A program made the translations under genes and the position numbers. DNA of 43,041 nucleotides from a phage, in NCBI GenBank assembly GCA_026180655.1, contig GCA_026180655.1_4341.1; one strand, 5' to 3'. Positions within the stretch are counted from its first letter, which is position 1; the number at the start of each line of letters is the position of its first letter. The notes under the pieces were generated by a model. The model worked only from the letters and a program-made list of their open reading frames with translations, was not told the DNA's origin and searched no databases. Below are positions 3,993 through 10,481 of this stretch, piece after piece.

Positions 3993-4474
3993 ATTCGTGG
4001 AAACGTTGATTGCGCGGTTCCGTAGGCTTTAAGGAAGCAATTAAGCCAGTCACCATAGCAACCAAACAAATCCGGCAGATTGTTAATCAGGCACCGGTTC
4101 TCAAGGTCCTGGAACGGTGACTTCTCGGCGGTTGCCGTGAAAGTAATCGTCCAGTTAATGCCGTCTTCTGTGGACTCCGCGATGGTGGACGTGATGGTTA
4201 CCTGATAATCCTCGATACCCATGCCGAAGTCGTGCGCCATCCAGAAACTTGACGCACCGCCGTCTACTTTTTCGAGGAACGACAGAAACGCCTGCCGCCC
4301 AAGCGCGGAGGTAATCAGGGTTACGCTTATCGGGAACACGTCGTAATACGTGTCGCGCCCCTGACGTACACCGCCGCCAGCTAAATCTACACTCCAGACG
4401 TTGTTGCGTCTGGTCATTGAGTAGCCTTTTGACACAATAGGCTTAAGGCTACGTGGGAAATATAAGTCGCTCAT
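3974..4474 (-). CDS. Minor/distal tail protein (lambda M-like), putative
   Basis: 166-aa ORF immediately downstream of the tape measure gene. Confidence 0.35.
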   Translation of the reverse strand: MSDLYFPRSLKPIVSKGYSMTRRNNVWSVDLAGGGVRQGRDTYYDVFPISVTLITSALGRQAFLSFLEKVDGGASSFWMAHDFGMGIEDYQVTITSTIAESTEDGINWTITFTATAEKSPFQDLENRCLINNLPDLFGCYGDWLNCFLKAYGTAQSTFPRIWDPMQ

Positions 4475-6762
4475 TACTTGAACCCCGGCGCGTTTCTTGT
4501 GGCCTTGCGGGCCTTGCTAATCTTACTGTTGCTGTTCTGCAAAGATGCGGCCACTTGCTCTTCTATGATGATGCGCAAACGGCCTTCATCATCCTGCTCA
4601 GTGGATACGTTGCCAATCTGACTCGATGTGTTATTTACGATGGTAACATTAGATGGGCCGGAAGAAGACCCATTTTGCCCCATAATCTCTTTCATTTGTT
4701 GCGCGGTGCGTACTCGCGACGCCCCTGCGGGCATGATTACCTCAGGTTTACCGCGTTCGGCAATGGTCGATGCCTGCCCTGCGGATAACTGACCGCCCTG
4801 TTCGCGCGCTGATCGGATAGCTGAAACCTGTGCCATACCCGCACCAACGGCAGCGGCAGCGGCTACAGGCGCAAGGAATGGCCCAACAACCGGGATAGCA
4901 GCCGTTGACTTGTATGCCTCGATAGCTGCGGTATACGTAGCGATAGTGGCCTGTACAATAGCGAACGCCTTATAAGCCCCGGATGCCTCCCCTAACGCGG
5001 AGCCAATGTTTGAGGCCATGTTGCCAAAAGCTGTTGCCGTCGCGTCGGCTCGCTTGGTTGCGTATTGCTCGTTGATAGCATTAAGTGCGGCCTGATACTG
5101 CTTCTCGCTAATCAAACCCTGCTCGCGGTACTTATCCGCTACCGCCAGTTTCTGCTGTTCCTGAATATCCAGAAGCTCAAGCTCGGTGGCGTTCTGGCCC
5201 ATAATCTGAGCCATGAAATCATCGCCTTTCTGTTGCTTCTCCTGGGCTTCTTTCTGGCGTTTATCAAGTTCATCTTGTCGTTTTTGCCCTGCCTCAAGAA
5301 CAATGGCAGTTTTAGCCTGCTCGTACTCTTTTAACGACAGCGCACCCTGACTGTAGAACTCTTTCGCTTTAGCCAGTTTCTGCTGTTCCTGCGCGTCAAT
5401 AGCCTTTAACTCGTCGTTGTTCTGACGGGCCAAAGTGTCGAGGTAATCCTGCGCCTGATTCCGCAATTGCTCTGCTTTCTTAGCGGCTGCTTTTGCGGCT
5501 TTATCGTCGGTTTTTCCTGTCCCACCAGTCCCGCCCTTTTTATTAACAAGGCTGGCTAAGTCGATTTCTTGTTTCTTGCGCTCGTCATACTGTTTGCGCT
5601 GTTCCTCAATTTCTTTTTTACGCTGTTTCGACCTGTCAGTAATAGCTTGGGATTCCGCCTCAGCGCGTTTTATGCTGGCGGCATACGCGGCGTCGGCCTC
5701 CGCGGTCAGGTTTTTAAATGTGAGCGCCGCCGTTTTGCTAGGGTCGAACACATCGGCAATAGTCTGGCCTAACGCCACAGCATAGTCGTCGATGCGCTGG
5801 AACCATGCGATAACCTCGTGGAAAGTCTGCTGAATATCAGGCAGCCACTCGCGGATGGCGTCGGGGATTGTGCCAAGCGAATCTGACATGTCCGCAGATT
5901 TGTCTTCTGTGTCGTACGCCAAATCGTTCAAAGCATCAGAAATAAACTTGAACGACTCATTGAACAGCGTCACCCAATCCTGGAGCGTAGCAGCTATCTC
6001 ATTAGACGCGATGGCGTCGGTGAGCGCCGTGATAGCATCTTCTGCTGTCGCCGCTTGCTCGCCTACCGCGTCACCGAAACCAGACTGCGCTACTGCAAGA
6101 ACAAGACCATCGAAGGAGTCAGCAAGGCTCGACAACTGCCCATCTAAGGTCTTCGAACGCGTTTCCATCGCCCCTGCAAAATCAGTGTTACCTATGTTCA
6201 GGAGGTATTTCTGAATTTCTTCGGAGTTCTTCTTAACCGTGGTCGTTACGCCACGGAACGTGAACGAAACAGTATCAGCCTGCTGTGACGACTTGATGCC
6301 AAACTCTTTCAGTCGCTCGAATTCAAATGTACTGGCGTCGGCAACTGCCTCAATCATCTGATTAAGGTCTTTACCCATCGCCGCAGCGGTGTTGCCGTAG
6401 GAAATCAAAGCCTCTTTGCTGGGGTTAAGCCCGAGCGCCACGAGCTTGGTAAATCCCTCTACCGCCTGGTTAAGGCCATACGGGGTTTCTTTCGCGAACT
6501 GTTGCAGGACGCTGAAAGCCTTAGCCGCGTTCTCGGCGCTCCCGGTCATCGTGATGAGGCCGGAGTTCAGCTTATCGAAGTTGCGCTGGGAGTCCACCAG
6601 CGCACTGAACACCTGCTTAGCGGTTTCCAGACTGACGACGGCAGCAGCAGCGGCCCCAGCCGCCTTAGTAAGCCCGTTCAGTTGTGATGTGGTTTTATCG
6701 ACGCCGGTCGATGATACTCGTACTATCAAGCTAGCGGTATCAGCCATGATTTCTACCTTCAA
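4474..6762 (-). CDS. Tail tape measure protein
   Basis: 762 aa, long Ala/Gln/Glu/Lys-rich coiled-coil stretches, Gly-rich segment (GGTGGTGKTDDKAAKAAAKK), position after the chaperone pair. Confidence 0.8.
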   Translation of the reverse strand: MKVEIMADTASLIVRVSSTGVDKTTSQLNGLTKAAGAAAAAVVSLETAKQVFSALVDSQRNFDKLNSGLITMTGSAENAAKAFSVLQQFAKETPYGLNQAVEGFTKLVALGLNPSKEALISYGNTAAAMGKDLNQMIEAVADASTFEFERLKEFGIKSSQQADTVSFTFRGVTTTVKKNSEEIQKYLLNIGNTDFAGAMETRSKTLDGQLSSLADSFDGLVLAVAQSGFGDAVGEQAATAEDAITALTDAIASNEIAATLQDWVTLFNESFKFISDALNDLAYDTEDKSADMSDSLGTIPDAIREWLPDIQQTFHEVIAWFQRIDDYAVALGQTIADVFDPSKTAALTFKNLTAEADAAYAASIKRAEAESQAITDRSKQRKKEIEEQRKQYDERKKQEIDLASLVNKKGGTGGTGKTDDKAAKAAAKKAEQLRNQAQDYLDTLARQNNDELKAIDAQEQQKLAKAKEFYSQGALSLKEYEQAKTAIVLEAGQKRQDELDKRQKEAQEKQQKGDDFMAQIMGQNATELELLDIQEQQKLAVADKYREQGLISEKQYQAALNAINEQYATKRADATATAFGNMASNIGSALGEASGAYKAFAIVQATIATYTAAIEAYKSTAAIPVVGPFLAPVAAAAAVGAGMAQVSAIRSAREQGGQLSAGQASTIAERGKPEVIMPAGASRVRTAQQMKEIMGQNGSSSGPSNVTIVNNTSSQIGNVSTEQDDEGRLRIIIEEQVAASLQNSNSKISKARKATRNAPGFK

Positions 6763-7072
6763 AGATTGCTTCTAAGCCCATGATAATGTCTATCTCGAAC
6801 AGGCTAAGCTGCTTTTGCGTAACATCGAGATAGGCTTTCAGGTCTTGCCACGTAACGGATTCTCTTGCAAACAATACTACAGCGTCCTCGCGCACGTGTC
6901 GCGTAAACTTAATGTCACAATACGTCTCAAAGGTGGATATAAAAAGGGGCGGGCATTCTGGCCCACCCCGTCGCGCTGCACGTTTTTTCTTATCGATTAC
7001 ACCCATTGCGATAAGCGCCTGTTCGTGACCGTCGGCTATAGAATCAAATTCTCTGATTTTATGCTTATCCAC
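6740..7072 (-). CDS. Tail assembly chaperone, frameshift-extension ORF (lambda T-like)
   Basis: ORF in the -1 frame relative to 7105..7524; its frame is open upstream to 7123, overlapping the last codons of the G-like ORF around the A-rich stretch caggaaaag. Confidence 0.4.
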   Translation of the reverse strand: MDKHKIREFDSIADGHEQALIAMGVIDKKKRAARRGGPECPPLFISTFETYCDIKFTRHVREDAVVLFARESVTWQDLKAYLDVTQKQLSLFEIDIIMGLEAIFEGRNHG

Positions 7073-7104
7073 GAACTCGTAGGTGGCGAACCTGTACAGC
7101 GCGT

Positions 7105-7524
7105 CTACTTTTCCTGTAATGCTTTACGCTCGGCATTATGGAACGCAGCTACCTGAGTACCTAGCCCCTTGAACTGGTCTAATAGCTTATTAAACGCTTC
7201 CTTAGAGAAAGGCTCGTCGTCGAAGCTCCAGCCGTTTACGACTTCTGCCGCGAGTTGCCGGTTGAGGTCTTCCGCCAGTTCATTAATCGCCAGGTTATAT
7301 TCAGTATAGTCGCCGGATTCTTTGGCGGCTTTTTCCAGTTCTTCAAAACGTGCGAGCCCGCGACGATACGCAATAATGAAAGCGCGGCCTGCTTTAACGG
7401 CGGCATCAGCATCAGGGCTTACCACATTAAGCCATTCCCCTGAGTCTTCACCGTTCGGCAGGAGAATCGGCATCTTCTTGCCTACCAGCGCTTTGTCTTC
7501 GAAATAAAAATCAGAAAGTTTCAT
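7105..7524 (-). CDS. Tail assembly chaperone (lambda G-like)
   Basis: 139-aa acidic ORF directly upstream of the tape measure gene, followed by an overlapping -1 frame ORF. Confidence 0.45.
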   Translation of the reverse strand: MKLSDFYFEDKALVGKKMPILLPNGEDSGEWLNVVSPDADAAVKAGRAFIIAYRRGLARFEELEKAAKESGDYTEYNLAINELAEDLNRQLAAEVVNGWSFDDEPFSKEAFNKLLDQFKGLGTQVAAFHNAERKALQEK

Positions 7525-7630
7525 TCTTTAATCCTTTGGTTAAGAGGTTACTGGTTAAAGGAGATGCGCCAGACGGGAACCACCCGCTTTTCGTGTGCGA
7601 CACTAGGCGCAAAATTATTCTAACACACTA

Positions 7631-7665
7631 CTTGCACACCCCAATATAATAGCGTACTATTCACT
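7631..7665 (+). promoter_or_regulatory. Conserved promoter-like element, class A copy 1 (CTTGCACACCCC-AATATAATAG-CGTA-CTATTCA)
   Basis: TATAAT at 7645-7650 overlapping palindrome AATAG-N4-CTATT (7648-7661); near-identical copies at 16310, 27219 (rc) and 28441 (rc); gene start 27 nt downstream. Confidence 0.45.
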
Positions 7666-7691
7666 TACACCAACAATGAAGGGGTTTTAAA

Positions 7692-7883
7692 ATGTCCAGT
7701 TTACCAATTTCCTTAATCCTGTTTGCACTGCTCGTGTACTTTGCGCCTTTTTTAGTTGCCTACTTCCGCAACCATAAAGCAAAGCTGGCGATATTCATGG
7801 CTAACTTATTTCTCGGATGGGTTCTGTTGCCGTGGGTATTCATTTTAATCTGGGCTTGCAACTCGAACGTGAAAGAGAAGTAA
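7692..7883 (+). CDS. Small two-TM membrane protein, superinfection-immunity (Imm)-like
   Basis: 63 aa, two hydrophobic helices, motif FRNHKAKLAIFMANLFLGWVLLPWVFILIWA recalled as typical of Imm-type superinfection immunity proteins; GAAGGGG RBS; opposite strand to flanking tail genes. Confidence 0.45.
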   Translation: MSSLPISLILFALLVYFAPFLVAYFRNHKAKLAIFMANLFLGWVLLPWVFILIWACNSNVKEK

Positions 7884-7921
7884 GCTACTATAAGACAAAT
7901 CCTAAACACGAGGAAGTAAGC

Positions 7922-9052
7922 ATGGCCCGGAAGAAAATAACCGACGAGCAGTTACAGGAAGAATTGAACGCCGGAACAAAGATTATCGACATATCCCGTA
8001 AATACGGCATCTCAGACCGCGTAATTCGTATCCGTAAAGCGAAGCTAGCTAAAAAAGGTGTAGGCCACGGGCGCGACGTTAGCCACCTTGTCCCGGACGG
8101 CTACAAGATTAAAGGAACGTCGTCACTGGTGGACGAGTTCGGCAACACTAAACTGCAATGGGTTAAGACCGACACCGACGCCGAACGCCAGGTAGAGTTG
8201 ATGAAAGCCGTAATCGAGGGCATGAAGTCAGAGATTACGCCAGTTGCGCCTGTTAAAGCCACCCGCACCAAACGTGACGATAAACTACTCAATCTTTACA
8301 CGGTATCTGATTTACATCTCGGTATGCTGGCCTGGGCCGACGAGAGCGGCGACGACTGGGATATGAAGATTGCGGAAGACCTGTTTTCTCGATGGTTCGA
8401 CGCAGCGTTTCAGAAAGCACCGGATGCAGGAACAGGAGTCATTAACCTGCTAGGCGACTTCGCACACTTCGATAGTCTTGATGCCGTTACCCCTGAGTCG
8501 CGTCATGTGTTGGACGCAGACACGCGCTATCAGAAACTTGTACGCTACATGATTCGTATGGTCCGCCGTGTTGTAGATATGGCGCTGGTTAAACATAAAA
8601 CCGTTCGCTTGCTTATTGTGCAAGGGAACCACGACGAAAGCGGAATGATTTGGTTGGCTGAGATGTTCAGTACGCTGTATGATAACGAGCCGCGTGTGTT
8701 CGTCGATACGTCGCCGGACGTTTACAAGATGGTACGGCACGGCAAAACGACGCTGTTCTTCCATCACGGGCATAAAGCACGATTCGACGCTATCGAACCG
8801 GTTATGATTGCCAAGTTCCGCAAAGCGTTTGGTGAGAGCGTTTACAGCTACGCCCACGTAGGCCACCTGCACCATCAGAAGATTGTAGAAAGCCGTAATA
8901 TGATTGTTGAGCAACACCGCACCTTAGCGGCGAAAGACGCCTACGCCTCTCGCGGTGGATGGATGTCGGGCCGGAGTGCAAATGTAATTACTTATAGCGC
9001 CGAATATGGTGAGGTCGCACGTTTAACTATTTCACCGGAGATGCTGGGATGA
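7922..9052 (+). CDS. Calcineurin-like metallophosphoesterase with N-terminal HTH domain
   Basis: Motifs D-x-H (VSDLHLG), GD-x-x-D (LGDFAHFD), GNH[DE] (QGNHDE), HHGH and GHLHH; N-terminal 60 aa HTH-like (IIDISRKYGISDRVIRIRKAKL); GAGGAAG RBS before ATG 7922. Confidence 0.65.
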   Translation: MARKKITDEQLQEELNAGTKIIDISRKYGISDRVIRIRKAKLAKKGVGHGRDVSHLVPDGYKIKGTSSLVDEFGNTKLQWVKTDTDAERQVELMKAVIEGMKSEITPVAPVKATRTKRDDKLLNLYTVSDLHLGMLAWADESGDDWDMKIAEDLFSRWFDAAFQKAPDAGTGVINLLGDFAHFDSLDAVTPESRHVLDADTRYQKLVRYMIRMVRRVVDMALVKHKTVRLLIVQGNHDESGMIWLAEMFSTLYDNEPRVFVDTSPDVYKMVRHGKTTLFFHHGHKARFDAIEPVMIAKFRKAFGESVYSYAHVGHLHHQKIVESRNMIVEQHRTLAAKDAYASRGGWMSGRSANVITYSAEYGEVARLTISPEMLG

Positions 9053-9279
9053 CTTCAAAATACAACCGCACAATGACAAATACTCACGGCAGCACAATGG
9101 CAGTAGATGTTTATGATGTGCTCCGCGCCTTTGATATACGCGACCCAGCACTACAGCACGCATTGAAGAAGCTATTGTGCATGGGGTTGCGCGGGCACAA
9201 AGATACAGGAACCGACTTAGCGGAAGCAATTGAAAGTCTGGAGAAGTTACGGGAGTATCGAAGCAATATTGACGAGTAA
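9049..9279 (+). CDS. Hypothetical protein (76 aa), translationally coupled to the phosphoesterase gene
   Basis: ATGA start/stop overlap with 7922..9052; followed by a terminator. Confidence 0.35.
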   Translation: MTSKYNRTMTNTHGSTMAVDVYDVLRAFDIRDPALQHALKKLLCMGLRGHKDTGTDLAEAIESLEKLREYRSNIDE

Positions 9280-9280
9280 G

Positions 9281-9310
9281 AAAAAAGGCCCCGAAAGGGG
9301 CCTTAGTTTT
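9281..9310. terminator. Bidirectional rho-independent terminator
   Basis: AAGGCCCC-GAAA-GGGGCCTT hairpin flanked by A-run on one side and T-run on the other; sits between convergent genes. Confidence 0.6.
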
Positions 9311-10481
9311 ATGCGTAGGTGATGCGCTGGATAACAATAGACGACTGGTACTGGTTGCCTGTGGACTGCCCTTCTATACTTTGGGTAATTGATTCCGGGC
9401 CAGATATTTCTGGTGTAACCGCCGTGAGTTCCGCGCGTTTCAAACTGAAAGACATAGCCCCGTTTACCCCCGCCAGAATAGAGTTAATCTCTACCTGCTG
9501 TTCGTTGATAAACTTCTGAATCATCGCCATGTCATACAGCTTACCGGAGATGGAGAAGGTGTTAGCCGCGCGGCTACGCTCAACAAATGCAACGTTAGTG
9601 TTGCCGAGTTCGAACTGCGCAGACGCGCTGTTATCGTTGGTGATGGTCAGGCTGTCACAACGCAACGGCGTAGAACCGTCGAACACGGAAACGTCAACCG
9701 AGGAGAACGGCTCATCAGTGAAAGTCACCGTAGAGAAATCAGAGCCAGACGGCTGCGCGGCGAGAATCTCCTGACTGCGACCGATGAATGGGAAGCTGCC
9801 AGTTACCATCGCGTTAACAGCCTGTTCGATGGTAAAACCAGAAACTTCCACGCCTTTGGTAAGCGTGTACGCGTCAGCCCCGCCGCACTGGCCTTTGTAC
9901 CAGGTGAGAATAGAGAACGTCTTACACTGGCTACCGGTTTCCAGTTTGTCGCCGGTCTTAGCCGCAGTAGTGGCAGTCTCCGTGGTGAGGGTGTGCTGAA
10001 TGCCCGCACCGGTAACAACCGTAGCCGTTACCGCGGTGACGATAAACGGTTTTGCGTTGTCGCCCGTTAAGTCGGTAAACGCGATCAGGTCGCCTACTTC
10101 AACGCCATCAGAAATAAAGCTGCCATCAGCACGGGTGAACGTCTTGCCCGCTGGTGCGACGGTAATAGACAGGTCAGTCAAGGATACACCTGATTGCCAC
10201 GTAGAGCCTAAAGCACCTGCCAGCCAGTCATCCTGGCTTTTCGAACTAAGCTCGATGGCGTATTCTCCGCTAACCTGTTTGTTACCGGTGCGGATGGACG
10301 TAGTTTCACGGCTGCCGTCCAGTTCGTTGGAGGTCAGCGTGTCGCGGGTAATAGCAGGAACGCCACCTGTGTTACGCAACGGCGACCAGACAGGGTTGTC
10401 CGGGGTTACGCCAGGGGTAGTTTCCGCCACATAGAATTGCGCGGTATTAGCGCCCTTAAAAGGAGTTGTAGCCATATTCAC
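9309..10481 (-). CDS. Major tail protein, putative
   Basis: 390-aa Thr/Ser/Gly-rich ORF preceding the chaperone/tape measure block; strong terminator downstream. Confidence 0.5.
   Translation of the reverse strand: MNMATTPFKGANTAQFYVAETTPGVTPDNPVWSPLRNTGGVPAITRDTLTSNELDGSRETTSIRTGNKQVSGEYAIELSSKSQDDWLAGALGSTWQSGVSLTDLSITVAPAGKTFTRADGSFISDGVEVGDLIAFTDLTGDNAKPFIVTAVTATVVTGAGIQHTLTTETATTAAKTGDKLETGSQCKTFSILTWYKGQCGGADAYTLTKGVEVSGFTIEQAVNAMVTGSFPFIGRSQEILAAQPSGSDFSTVTFTDEPFSSVDVSVFDGSTPLRCDSLTITNDNSASAQFELGNTNVAFVERSRAANTFSISGKLYDMAMIQKFINEQQVEINSILAGVNGAMSFSLKRAELTAVTPEISGPESITQSIEGQSTGNQYQSSIVIQRITYA

What the first reader, a model, noticed from the sequence alone, without database searches (positions are those of the whole stretch)
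6740..7524. Probable -1 programmed frameshift in the tail assembly chaperone pair
ORF 7524..7105 (G-like) ends ...NAERKALQEK. The -1 frame is open from 7123 through 6740, so a slip in the A-rich stretch caggaaaag (about 7108-7116) would produce a G-T-like fusion (...ALQEKVDALYRFATYEFVDKHKIREFD...). The position directly upstream of the tape measure gene is canonical, but the heptamer is not a textbook X-XXY-YYZ site.
Basis: partly seen in the sequence, partly recalled or inferred. Interest (0 to 1): 0.4.

Follow-up and report, generated by a model that had tools for sequence, protein, structure and literature searches.

The report
Tail chaperone frameshift with long-range helix
This is the usual phage trick of making a second, longer tail-assembly chaperone by a -1 ribosome slip just before the tape-measure gene, already annotated in close relatives, but it uses a minimal four-base slip site next to the stop codon, apparently helped by a conserved long-range RNA helix that I found described nowhere.

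Summary
On the minus strand, G (7524..7105, 139 aa) ends ...ALQEK-TAG. The -1 frame is open from 7123 to 6740 and encodes a T domain directly upstream of the tape measure gene. The window is a Kagunavirus-like siphophage. GenBank and RefSeq K1G and K1H already carry the joined G-T CDS, so the frameshift itself is not new.

Comparison of 86 related loci (T halves 38-100% identical) refines it:
- Every G ends NNA_AAG_TAR. Only the tetramer A_AAG plus the stop is invariant.
- In some relatives the -1 frame opens only 10 nt before the stop, which pins the slip to that site.
- T has no conserved start codon.

The unexpected part is downstream. Synonymous sites are frozen at GCG-YUG, 5 nt after A_AAG. 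This is the 5' arm of a helix whose 3' arm lies 68-200 nt away, at lineage-specific positions. In the window it is 7103-7094 with 6981-6972.

Support for the helix: compensatory changes, RNAalifold finding it de novo, and ensemble pairing probability of at least 0.83 in 27 of 29 lineages.

The likely mechanism is a tRNA-Lys slip from AAG to AAA, stimulated by the helix and perhaps by the adjacent stop. The frameshift is well supported. The helix's role is inferred.

The parts
7105..7524 (-). Gene G (tail assembly chaperone, zero frame), 139 aa. ATG at 7524-7522, stop TAG at 7107-7105, SD AGGA at 7535-7532.
   Evidence: It matches phrog_15027 positions 1-138 at E=3e-69. It also matches Pfam Phage_TAC_4 at 21.9 bits against a cutoff of 21.1.
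7108..7114 (-). Shift site G_GAA_AAG. The essential part is the tetramer A_AAG at 7111-7108, where tRNA-Lys re-pairs from AAG to AAA.
   Evidence: AAAGTA is invariant in 78 of 78 distinct junctions from 86 loci. The 5' codon varies: GAA 61, GCA 17, GTA 3, GGA 2 and TCA 1 among the 84 loci tabulated, and L091 has A_AAA_AAG. In L076 and L080 the -1 frame is open for only 10 nt, which confines the shift to GCA_AAG.
7105..7107 (-). Zero-frame stop codon TAG, immediately 3' of the slip codon. It lies in the spacer between the slip site and the helix.
   Evidence: A stop (TAG or TAA) directly follows A_AAG in 86 of 86 loci.
6740..7111 (-). -1 frame coding part (T domain), read from the re-paired AAA (7111-7109) and GTA (7108-7106) through to TGA at 6742-6740. 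It contributes 122 aa after Lys139. The G-T fusion is 261 aa.
   Evidence: It matches phrog_15027 positions 137-259 at E=1e-70 and Pfam Phage_TAC_18 at E=1e-18. T-frame residues are conserved across five divergent lineages.
7094..7103 (-). 5' arm of the long-range helix (CGCGCUGUAC). It starts 4-5 nt after A_AAG.
   Evidence: Synonymous sites are frozen here. Ala is GCG in 27 of 28 lineages and Leu is only CUG or UUG, whereas other invariant Leu and Gly codons use 4-6 synonyms.
6972..6981 (-). 3' arm of the long-range helix (GUGCAGCGCG). It lies inside the variable linker of T (codons R-A-A-R).
   Evidence: - The duplex is 10 bp at -20.2 kcal/mol.
- The helix is present in the minimum-energy fold of 7107..6965, which has z=-2.42.
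- Its ensemble pairing probability is 1.0.
- The core 7 pairs are paired in 22 of 22 class A sequences, with CG 10 / UA 12 at one pair.
- It is an invariant nucleotide island (columns 140, 141, 143-145) in an otherwise variable stretch.
6946..6969 (-). GC-rich hairpin (9 bp, -20.6 kcal/mol) followed by UUUUUAUAU, 2 nt after the 3' arm. It looks like an intrinsic terminator. Whether it belongs to the frameshift signal is unknown.
   Evidence: It was found by the pattern scan. A hairpin plus U-run recurs in many relatives, with co-varying stem extensions.
4474..6747 (-). Tape measure gene (context). The ATG at 6747 overlaps the T stop by 8 nt (ATGGCTGA).
   Evidence: It matches phrog_1538 at E=2e-195. 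The start is as annotated in K1G and Bas74. The ORF listing reports an upstream TTG at 6762 instead.

Best explanation
**Shown by sequence and comparison.** G and T are the tail assembly chaperone pair of a Kagunavirus-like siphophage. T has no start codon of its own and can be expressed only as a C-terminal extension of G. The only place where the frames can be joined in every relative is the last two codons of G, NNA_AAG, followed at once by a stop codon.

**Inferred mechanism.** A minority of ribosomes decoding GAA-AAG (7113-7108) slip back one base. The single E. coli tRNA-Lys (anticodon mnm5s2UUU), which pairs poorly with AAG, re-pairs with AAA (7111-7109). The next codon read is GUA (Val) instead of UAG. 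The product is ...ALQEK-VDALYRF..., a 261-aa G-T fusion.

In the window the P-site tRNA-Glu can re-pair near-cognately (GAA to GGA). In relatives with C_GCA_AAG it cannot. The conserved event is therefore a single-tRNA slip.

**Inferred stimulators.**
1. A GC-rich helix whose 5' arm starts 4-5 nt after the slip site. That places it at the mRNA entrance of a ribosome holding GAA and AAG in its P and A sites. Its 3' arm lies 68-200 nt downstream (7103-7094 with 6981-6972 in the window).
2. The adjacent stop codon, which is decoded slowly and leaves time for a P-site slip.

By analogy with lambda gpG and gpGT, abundant G and rare G-T would then coat the tape measure protein and recruit the tail tube protein.
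For: **Gene identity**
- Identity and position of G, T and the tape measure gene.
- The two-frame arrangement occurs in 490 phage records.
- A joined CDS is already annotated in K1G and K1H.

**Site**
- A_AAG_TAR is invariant in 86 of 86 loci, while the flanking codons vary.
- The overlap is only 10 nt in L076 and L080.
- Natural variants carry the canonical G_GGA_AAG (RP180) and A_AAA_AAG (L091) at the same place.

**No independent start**
- No conserved in-frame start codon.
- No conserved SD-like element upstream of the slip site; this speaks to stimulation, not to initiation.

**Helix**
- Synonymous sites are frozen at +9..+14.
- Complementary arms are found in every lineage.
- Class A: 85.9% of cells are paired, against 22-56% with the partner slid. 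0 of 500 shuffles reach this. The core 7 bp are paired in 22 of 22 sequences.
- Class B: 91.3% paired, against 17-53% slid. Three pairs show double changes.
- RNAalifold recovers both helices de novo.
- The window's own fold contains the helix, with z=-2.42.
- Ensemble pairing probability is at least 0.83 in 27 of 29 lineages.
- G-U pairs make the helix specific to the mRNA strand.

**Literature**
- A_AAG is the most shift-prone tetramer in E. coli. It gives 5.6% with a pseudoknot 5 nt downstream and about background without one (PMC4066793).
- NNA_AAG sites are used by IS1222 and occur in Bacillus cdd (PMC5009743).
Against: - There is no experimental evidence for this phage or its family in the material I could reach.
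- A_AAG alone is barely above background in E. coli reporters (0.147% against 0.112%). The model therefore depends on stimulators that are only inferred here.
- The helix closes a loop of 112 nt in the window and up to about 180 nt in relatives. No local hairpin exists (z=+1.22), and long-range helices may refold slowly between ribosomes.
- Duplex energy alone is unremarkable. The window ranks 4 of 126 sliding segments, and the median across lineages is about 11 of 126.
- Independent compensatory events are few. The CG/UA switch is a single event on the tree.
- In class B the 3' arm encodes a conserved KFIQR motif, so part of its conservation is protein-level.
- The first T-frame residues (V, A, L) are confounded with RNA-level constraints.
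Confidence: 0.85

Rival explanations
1. T is an independent gene, translated from its own start. Candidates are GTG 7072, or the CTG at 7099-7097 as several GenBank records annotate it. It might use the AGGA inside the slip site as its RBS, or be reached by termination-reinitiation after the G stop.
For: - Many records annotate a separate ORF: Bas74 and Jersey from CTG, Shashou and Golestan from TTG with an 'RBS', RP180 from GTG.
- The codon at +12..+14 is always CUG or UUG.
- The Shashou authors noted 'no canonical slippery sequence' (PMC6776780).
Against: - GTG 7072 is not conserved.
- 10 of 29 lineages have no ATG, GTG or TTG before +96.
- CUG, in 81% of sequences, is a very poor bacterial initiator.
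- Lineages with C_GCA_AAG have no AGGA.
- The frame relation (-1) and the A_AAG-stop junction are fixed in 86 of 86 loci, which independent initiation would not require.
- The YUG constraint is explained by pairing with CAR in the 3' arm, together with the frozen GCG.
Confidence: 0.05
2. The frameshift is real, but the long-range helix is not its stimulator. The helix could serve mRNA stability or processing. It could be a transcription termination or antitermination device together with the adjacent terminator-like hairpin. It could control tape-measure translation. In that case the slip relies on A_AAG plus the stop codon alone.
For: - The loop is large.
- The duplex energy rank is only moderate.
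- A terminator-like hairpin lies 2 nt after the 3' arm.
- A structured leader RNA lies upstream of G.
- The T region is translated by few ribosomes, so other RNA-level functions are plausible there.
Against: - The 5' arm keeps the same distance (4-5 nt) from A_AAG in all lineages, while the 3' arm moves between +68, about +130 and about +200. This points to selection on what sits next to the slip site.
- The geometry equals that of the IS3 A_AAG plus pseudoknot construct.
- A_AAG without a stimulator is near background.
Confidence: 0.2
3. The fusion arises from transcriptional slippage on the A-run (GGAAAAG) rather than from ribosomal slippage.
For: A short A-run is present at the junction.
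Against: - The run is only four A's (six in L091). From general knowledge, productive RNA polymerase slippage needs about 7 or more identical bases.
- In GCA_AAG, GTA_AAG and TCA_AAG lineages the run is three A's.
Confidence: 0.01

Closest known systems
Phage lambda gpG / gpGT tail assembly chaperone frameshift (Levin 1993; Xu, Hendrix and Duda 2004, 2013, 2014, as summarised in PMC5009743)
   Same: - Two overlapping ORFs lie directly upstream of the tape measure gene.
- The shift is -1, near the end of G.
- The slip codon is AAG, decoded by tRNA-Lys.
- The expected outcome is a low fusion-to-G ratio.
- RP180, a 94% relative, even carries lambda's exact G_GGA_AAG.
   Different: - The conserved motif here is only the tetramer A_AAG.
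- The slip codon is the last sense codon of G, so the stop is adjacent.
- A conserved downstream helix is present.
- There is no detectable sequence similarity to lambda G or T. The family assignment rests on PHROG and Pfam chaperone families.
- An opposite-strand gene block separates the tail tube gene from G.
A_AAG tetramer and NNA_AAG hexamer -1 frameshifting in IS3-family elements (IS3, IS1222) and Bacillus subtilis cdd (PMC4066793, PMC5009743)
   Same: - The minimal motif is the same.
- It has the same dependence on the third-base A of the 5' codon.
- The spacer to a 3' structure is the same, about 5 nt.
- The efficiency expected with a stimulator, a few percent, fits a chaperone ratio.
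   Different: - The stimulator in the IS elements is a local pseudoknot or hairpin, and in cdd an upstream SD. Here it is a helix closing a loop of 50-180 nt, with no conserved SD.
- The biological context is phage tail assembly, not transposase.
'Shifty stop' frameshifting (Weiss 1987; cited in PMC5009743), and Burkholderia phage KL1 with GGGAAAC immediately before the gp18 stop (PMC3483164)
   Same: A stop codon directly 3' of the slippery codon, also seen in another phage chaperone pair.
   Different: Classical shifty stops are mostly +1 (prfB, antizyme). A role for the stop here is inferred only from its invariance.
Long-distance frameshift stimulators of plant RNA viruses (for example umbravirus-like RNAs, PMC10602861)
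   Same: Sequence next to the slip site pairs with a distant downstream segment.
   Different: Those act in eukaryotic translation over kilobases. Here the distance is 68-200 nt, inside the same bacterial-phage ORF.

Membership tests
Tail assembly chaperone G/GT programmed -1 frameshift (lambda type) | Two overlapping ORFs immediately upstream of the tape measure gene and downstream of the major tail gene. | tested here: met
   G is at 7524..7105, T runs to 6740, and the tape measure gene starts at 6747. The tail tube gene is at 10481..9309 (Pfam Phage_tube_2). An opposite-strand block at 7692..9279 lies between the tube gene and G.
Tail assembly chaperone G/GT programmed -1 frameshift (lambda type) | The downstream ORF is in the -1 frame and lacks its own conserved start and RBS. 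| tested here: met
   The -1 relation holds in 86 of 86 loci. No conserved start codon exists, and 10 of 29 lineages have none before +96.
Tail assembly chaperone G/GT programmed -1 frameshift (lambda type) | A canonical X_XXY_YYZ slippery heptamer in the overlap. | tested here: not met
   The window has G_GAA_AAG. Only RP180 (G_GGA_AAG) and L091 (A_AAA_AAG) are canonical, and 17 loci have N_GCA_AAG. The tetramer rule Z_ZZN is met.
Tail assembly chaperone G/GT programmed -1 frameshift (lambda type) | Protein homology to tail assembly chaperone families. | tested here: met
   phrog_15027 covers G and T at E=3e-69 and 1e-70. Pfam Phage_TAC_18 matches T at E=1e-18, and Phage_TAC_4 matches G at a borderline 21.9 bits against a cutoff of 21.1. 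There is no PDB relative by sequence.
Tail assembly chaperone G/GT programmed -1 frameshift (lambda type) | The fusion protein is made at a low ratio to G and is needed for tail assembly. | not testable with these tools
   This needs reporter assays, proteomics or phage genetics.
Z_ZZN (A_AAG) tetranucleotide -1 frameshift with a 3' stimulator (IS3 / IS1222 type) | A_AAG in zero-frame register, with host tRNA-Lys able to re-pair to AAA. | tested here: met
   7111-7108, invariant across the family. The fact that E. coli has a single tRNA-Lys comes from PMC5009743.
Z_ZZN (A_AAG) tetranucleotide -1 frameshift with a 3' stimulator (IS3 / IS1222 type) | A stable RNA structure beginning about 5-8 nt 3' of the motif. 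| tested here: met
   The helix starts at +8 or +9, a spacer of 4-5 nt. It is supported by covariation and by folding. It is long-range, not a local hairpin or pseudoknot.
Z_ZZN (A_AAG) tetranucleotide -1 frameshift with a 3' stimulator (IS3 / IS1222 type) | Frameshift efficiency depends on the structure. | not testable with these tools
   This needs mutational reporter assays.
Shifty-stop frameshifting | A stop codon immediately 3' of the slip codon. | tested here: met
   TAG or TAA follows A_AAG in 86 of 86 loci. Dependence on release-factor activity is not testable here.
Any described Rfam frameshift element | A match to a curated covariance model over the frameshift region. | tested here: not met
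   There is no Rfam match in 6740..7130 at E<=1. The only hit in 6700..7700 is int-alpA in the leader.

The most novel reading that the evidence does not exclude
Guernseyvirinae (Kagunavirus, Jerseyvirus and relatives) use a distinct, family-wide frameshift cassette for their tail chaperone.
- A minimal A_AAG tetramer is the last sense codon of G.
- The stop codon sits in the spacer.
- A GC-rich helix has its 5' arm fixed next to the slip site. Its 3' arm has moved during evolution between at least three places in the T coding sequence (+68, about +130, about +200).

The cassette may work together with a terminator-like hairpin inside T and an int-alpA-like leader RNA upstream of G. It would be a natural bacterial-phage example of a long-distance -1 frameshift stimulator with an evolutionarily mobile partner.
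Probability: 0.55. Interest if true: 0.55.

Novelty: new variant of a known kind. Interest (0 to 1): 0.45.

Why it matters
**Annotation.** Most of the roughly 500 Guernseyvirinae genomes annotate T as a separate gene starting at CTG, TTG or GTG, or as a hypothetical protein. One genome paper states that no slippery sequence exists. The comparison here fixes the site (NNA_AAG-stop) and gives a rule for annotating the joined CDS.

**Mechanism.** Tail-chaperone frameshifts are usually described as heptamer-only. This is a family in which a weak tetramer is invariant and appears to be compensated by a phylogenetically supported RNA helix and an adjacent stop codon. That gives a compact, testable natural system in E. 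coli and its phages for three questions:
- how tetramer sites reach useful efficiencies;
- how a stop codon in the spacer contributes;
- how a stimulator's distal arm can relocate while the proximal arm stays put.

**Therapy.** These phages are used as therapy candidates (K1-capsule phages). Synonymous recoding of this region in engineered phages could unintentionally break tail assembly.

Tried and rejected
- **Local 3' hairpin or pseudoknot.** The 55 nt after the stop fold no better than shuffles (z=+1.22). The 90-nt segment gives z=-1.48.
- **RNAalifold on all 29 lineages over 120 nt or less.** It gave an empty consensus. The 3' arm lies further away and at different places, so this early negative was misleading.
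- **A mid-range pairing of the 5' arm with the FDSI codons (+55..+80).** It is present only in a subset and was dropped.
- **Upstream SD-like stimulator.** It is strong only in Jersey (-8.0 kcal/mol) and not conserved.
- **Independent start for T.** Rejected.
- **Duplex energy as a stand-alone statistic.** It gives only top 2-25% ranks, so I do not rely on it.
- **Protein homology search.** Searching the 5.8-billion-protein database with the fusion returned only 4 hits and no fusion proteins.
- **PDB sequence searches.** They found nothing meaningful.
- **Rfam.** It has no model for the frameshift region.
- **Literature.** The Jerseyvirinae paper (PMID 25663216), which probably discusses the frameshift, is not in the held library. 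Searches found no description of the helix.
- **Not done.** I did not determine where K1G's join is annotated, and I did not predict protein structures.
Full report
**1.

On the minus strand the ORF 7524..7105 encodes 139 aa ending NAERKALQEK, followed by TAG (7107-7105). The -1 frame has a TAA at 7126-7124 and is then open from 7123 to TGA 6742-6740. In register the junction reads CAG GAA AAG TAG.

**2. What the genes are.**

The window is a Kagunavirus-like siphophage of the Guernseyvirinae. The region is 93-94.5% identical to Kagunavirus 536P11, Raoultella phage RP180 and phage K1G.
- G and the -1 ORF match the two halves of a single 259-position PHROG profile, 'tail assembly chaperone' (E=3e-69 and 1e-70).
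- The -1 ORF matches Pfam Phage_TAC_18 (E=1e-18). G matches Phage_TAC_4 only just above its cutoff.
- The next gene (6747..4474) is the tape measure protein (E=2e-195).
- The tail tube gene lies upstream at 10481..9309. A block of opposite-strand genes (7692..9279) separates it from G.

**3. The frameshift is already annotated in relatives, but inconsistently.**

GenBank GU196277 (K1G) and RefSeq K1G and K1H carry a two-piece joined CDS, ORF22B and ORF19B. Other records annotate a separate ORF:
- from CTG in Bas74 and Jersey;
- from TTG in Golestan, and in Shashou with an annotated 'RBS' that is the AGGA of the slip site;
- from GTG in RP180;
- from a later start in Tsm2.

The Shashou announcement states that there is 'no canonical slippery sequence' (PMC6776780).

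**4. Comparative test of the frameshift.**

A tblastn search with the fusion finds both halves, in two frames and side by side, in 490 phage records at 45-98% identity. I collected 91 loci from GenBank and IMG/VR. A junction could be read in 86.

- In all 86, G ends NNA_AAG followed directly by TAG or TAA. AAAGTA is invariant in 78 of 78 distinct sequences.
- The preceding codon varies: GAA 61, GCA 17, GTA 3, GGA 2 and TCA 1 among the 84 loci tabulated. RP180 has the lambda heptamer G_GGA_AAG and L091 has A_AAA_AAG.
- The length of the frame overlap varies from 10 to 208 nt. In L076 and L080 it is 10 nt, so the shift can occur only at GCA_AAG.
GTG 7072 is GTC, ATA or GTT elsewhere. 10 of 29 lineages have no ATG, GTG or TTG in the T frame before +96. 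The only conserved ATG is an internal Met at +105.

The fixed -1 relation and the fixed junction across relatives whose T halves are as little as 38% identical would not be required if T were initiated independently.

**5. The slip site.**

The conserved element is the tetramer A_AAG, not a heptamer. According to Sharma et al. (PMC4066793):
- A_AAG is by far the most shift-prone Z_ZZN motif in E. coli;
- it is at about background (0.147% against 0.112%) without a stimulator;
- it reaches 5.6% with a pseudoknot placed 5 nt downstream.

NNA_AAG sites are used by IS1222 and occur in Bacillus cdd. Their efficiency depends on the tRNA that reads NNA (PMC5009743). E. coli has a single tRNA-Lys for AAA and AAG.

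In the window the P-site tRNA-Glu could re-pair near-cognately (GAA to GGA). In C_GCA_AAG lineages no P-site re-pairing is possible. The family-wide event must therefore be a single-tRNA slip. This last step is inference.

**6. A downstream stimulator: a long-range helix.**

Local folding gave nothing. Codon statistics, however, showed frozen synonymous sites right after the stop. Ala at +9..+11 is GCG in 27 of 28 lineages, and Leu at +12..+14 is only CUG or UUG. Other invariant Leu and Gly codons use 4-6 synonyms.

This hexamer is the start of a segment complementary to a distant downstream segment in every lineage.

| Class | 3' arm position | Example | Strength |
|---|---|---|---|
| A (122-aa T, includes the window) | about +130, in the variable linker of T | window CGCGCUGUAC (7103-7094) with GUGCAGCGCG (6981-6972) | 10 bp, -20.2 kcal/mol |
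| B (121-aa T: Jersey, K1H, Tsm2) | about +200, over the KFIQR codons | GCGCUGUAUGAAUU with AAUUCAUACAGCGC | 13-15 bp, -21 to -25 kcal/mol |
| L091 | +68 | 5' arm uniquely GCCCUGC, partner GCAGGGC | 11 bp, -22.2 kcal/mol |
| L067 and L073 | class A position | their class B site is broken | |

Formal counts on ungapped alignments:
- **Class A.** The core 7 pairs are paired in 22 of 22 sequences, with CG 10 / UA 12 at one pair and UA, UG and CG at another. Overall 85.9% of cells are paired, against 22-56% when the partner is slid. 0 of 500 shuffles reach this.
- **Class B.** 91.3% of cells are paired, against 17-53% when slid. Three pairs carry double changes. L083 alone carries three compensated pairs that change amino acids on both arms.
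- RNAalifold, given only the alignments, returns these helices as the main consensus feature.
- The window's own 143-nt fold contains the helix (MFE -43.5 kcal/mol, z=-2.42).
- In partition-function folding of each lineage's own 236 nt, the helix has a mean pair probability of at least 0.83 in 27 of 29 lineages, and 1.0 in the window.
- Numerous G-U pairs make the structure specific to the mRNA strand.

Caveats:
- Duplex energy alone ranks only in the top 2-25% of sliding controls in most lineages, and worse in a few such as L049 at 55 of 126.
- On a neighbour-joining tree the CG/UA switch is a single event, and the number of independent compensatory events is modest.
- In class B the 3' arm also encodes a conserved peptide.

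**7. Geometry and mechanism (inferred).**

The helix starts at +8 or +9, that is 4-5 nt after A_AAG. With GAA in the P site and AAG in the A site, this is about +11/+12 from the P-site codon, at the mRNA entrance. It is the same spacing as in the IS3 A_AAG construct.

The 5' arm stays put while the 3' arm has relocated. This argues that selection acts on having a helix next to the slip site.

The stop codon occupies the spacer in all 86 loci. It may add a 'shifty stop' contribution, a P-site slip while the A site awaits a release factor (concept cited in PMC5009743). KL1, another siphophage, also has its heptamer immediately before the stop (PMC3483164).

Both routes give the same protein. No conserved upstream SD exists. 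Transcriptional slippage is implausible on 3-4 A's.

**8. Comparison and novelty.**

In function and position this is a lambda-type G/GT chaperone frameshift, and it is already annotated in K1G and K1H.

It fails the canonical-heptamer criterion and meets the tetramer-plus-3'-structure criteria of IS3-type sites. The stimulator is neither a local hairpin nor a pseudoknot, and it matches no Rfam model.

I found no description of the A_AAG-stop rule or of the helix in the held literature. The 2015 Jerseyvirinae paper could not be read.

I rate it a new variant of a known kind. The frameshift itself is ordinary. The cassette architecture is the modestly new part.

**9. Confidence.**
- A -1 frameshift at A_AAG producing G-T: about 0.9.
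- The helix is a real, selected RNA structure: about 0.8.
- The helix stimulates the frameshift: about 0.6.
- The stop codon contributes: about 0.4.

**10. Side observations.**

An int-alpA-like structured RNA (Rfam RF02996) lies in the leader of G. It scores 34.7 bits against a gathering score of 35.8, and it recurs at the same place in distant relatives, above threshold in Golestan.

A strong terminator-like hairpin lies inside T, 2 nt after the 3' arm, and recurs in relatives.

Their relation to each other and to the frameshift is unknown.

Noticed in passing
window 7549..7613, minus strand (5' leader of gene G, 25 nt upstream of the ATG at 7524): There is a full-length match to Rfam int-alpA RNA (RF02996) at 34.7 bits, just under the gathering score of 35.8 (E=7e-6 on 200 nt). 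The same element sits at the same place upstream of G in distant relatives: Golestan L004 at 36.6 bits, above threshold; K1H L007 at 31.6; L028 at 33.5; L074 at 31.5; L083 at 27.8. The held literature gives no function for this motif. Finding it in the leader of a tail-gene operon of virulent phages is unexplained.
   Followed up: partly
window 6946..6969, minus strand, plus the U-run at 6945..6937 (inside the T coding region): This is an intrinsic-terminator-like hairpin, GGGGUGGGC-CAGAAU-GCCCGCCCC followed by UUUUUAUAU (9 bp, 8 of them GC, -20.6 kcal/mol). It lies 2 nt after the 3' arm of the long-range helix. A GC hairpin over the conserved GPECP codons, followed by a U-run, recurs in many relatives, and its stem extensions co-vary with the variable linker. 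It could be a partial terminator in a sparsely translated region, or part of the frameshift signal.
   Followed up: partly
loci L002 (Bas74), L003 (RP180), L004 (Golestan), L005 (Shashou), L006 (Tsm2), L008 (Jersey): Public records annotate T as an independent gene with unlikely starts. Bas74 and Jersey use CTG. Shashou and Golestan use TTG, Shashou with an 'RBS' that is the AGGA of the slip site. RP180 uses GTG and Tsm2 a start 100 nt downstream. These are probably systematic mis-annotations of one joined CDS.
   Followed up: yes
window 7692..9279, plus strand: A block of opposite-strand genes is inserted between the tail tube gene (10481..9309, minus) and G. It includes a 63-aa membrane protein annotated in relatives as superinfection immunity, and a metallophosphatase annotated as 'DNA repair exonuclease' (phrog_704, E=7e-164). 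G-T-TMP therefore needs its own promoter in 7525..7700. The sigma-70 consensus scan found none on the minus strand there.
   Followed up: no
window 6740..6762, minus strand: The mechanical ORF list starts the tape measure gene at TTG 6762. Relatives annotate the ATG at 6747, which overlaps the T stop by 8 nt (ATGGCTGA) and has a GAAGG Shine-Dalgarno upstream. That suggests translational coupling of the tape measure gene to the rare ribosomes finishing G-T, or independent initiation.
   Followed up: no
window 7105..7524 compared with L001-L008: G is 139 aa in the window but 138 aa in K1G, RP180, Golestan, K1H and Jersey, a one-codon difference. I did not locate it.
   Followed up: no
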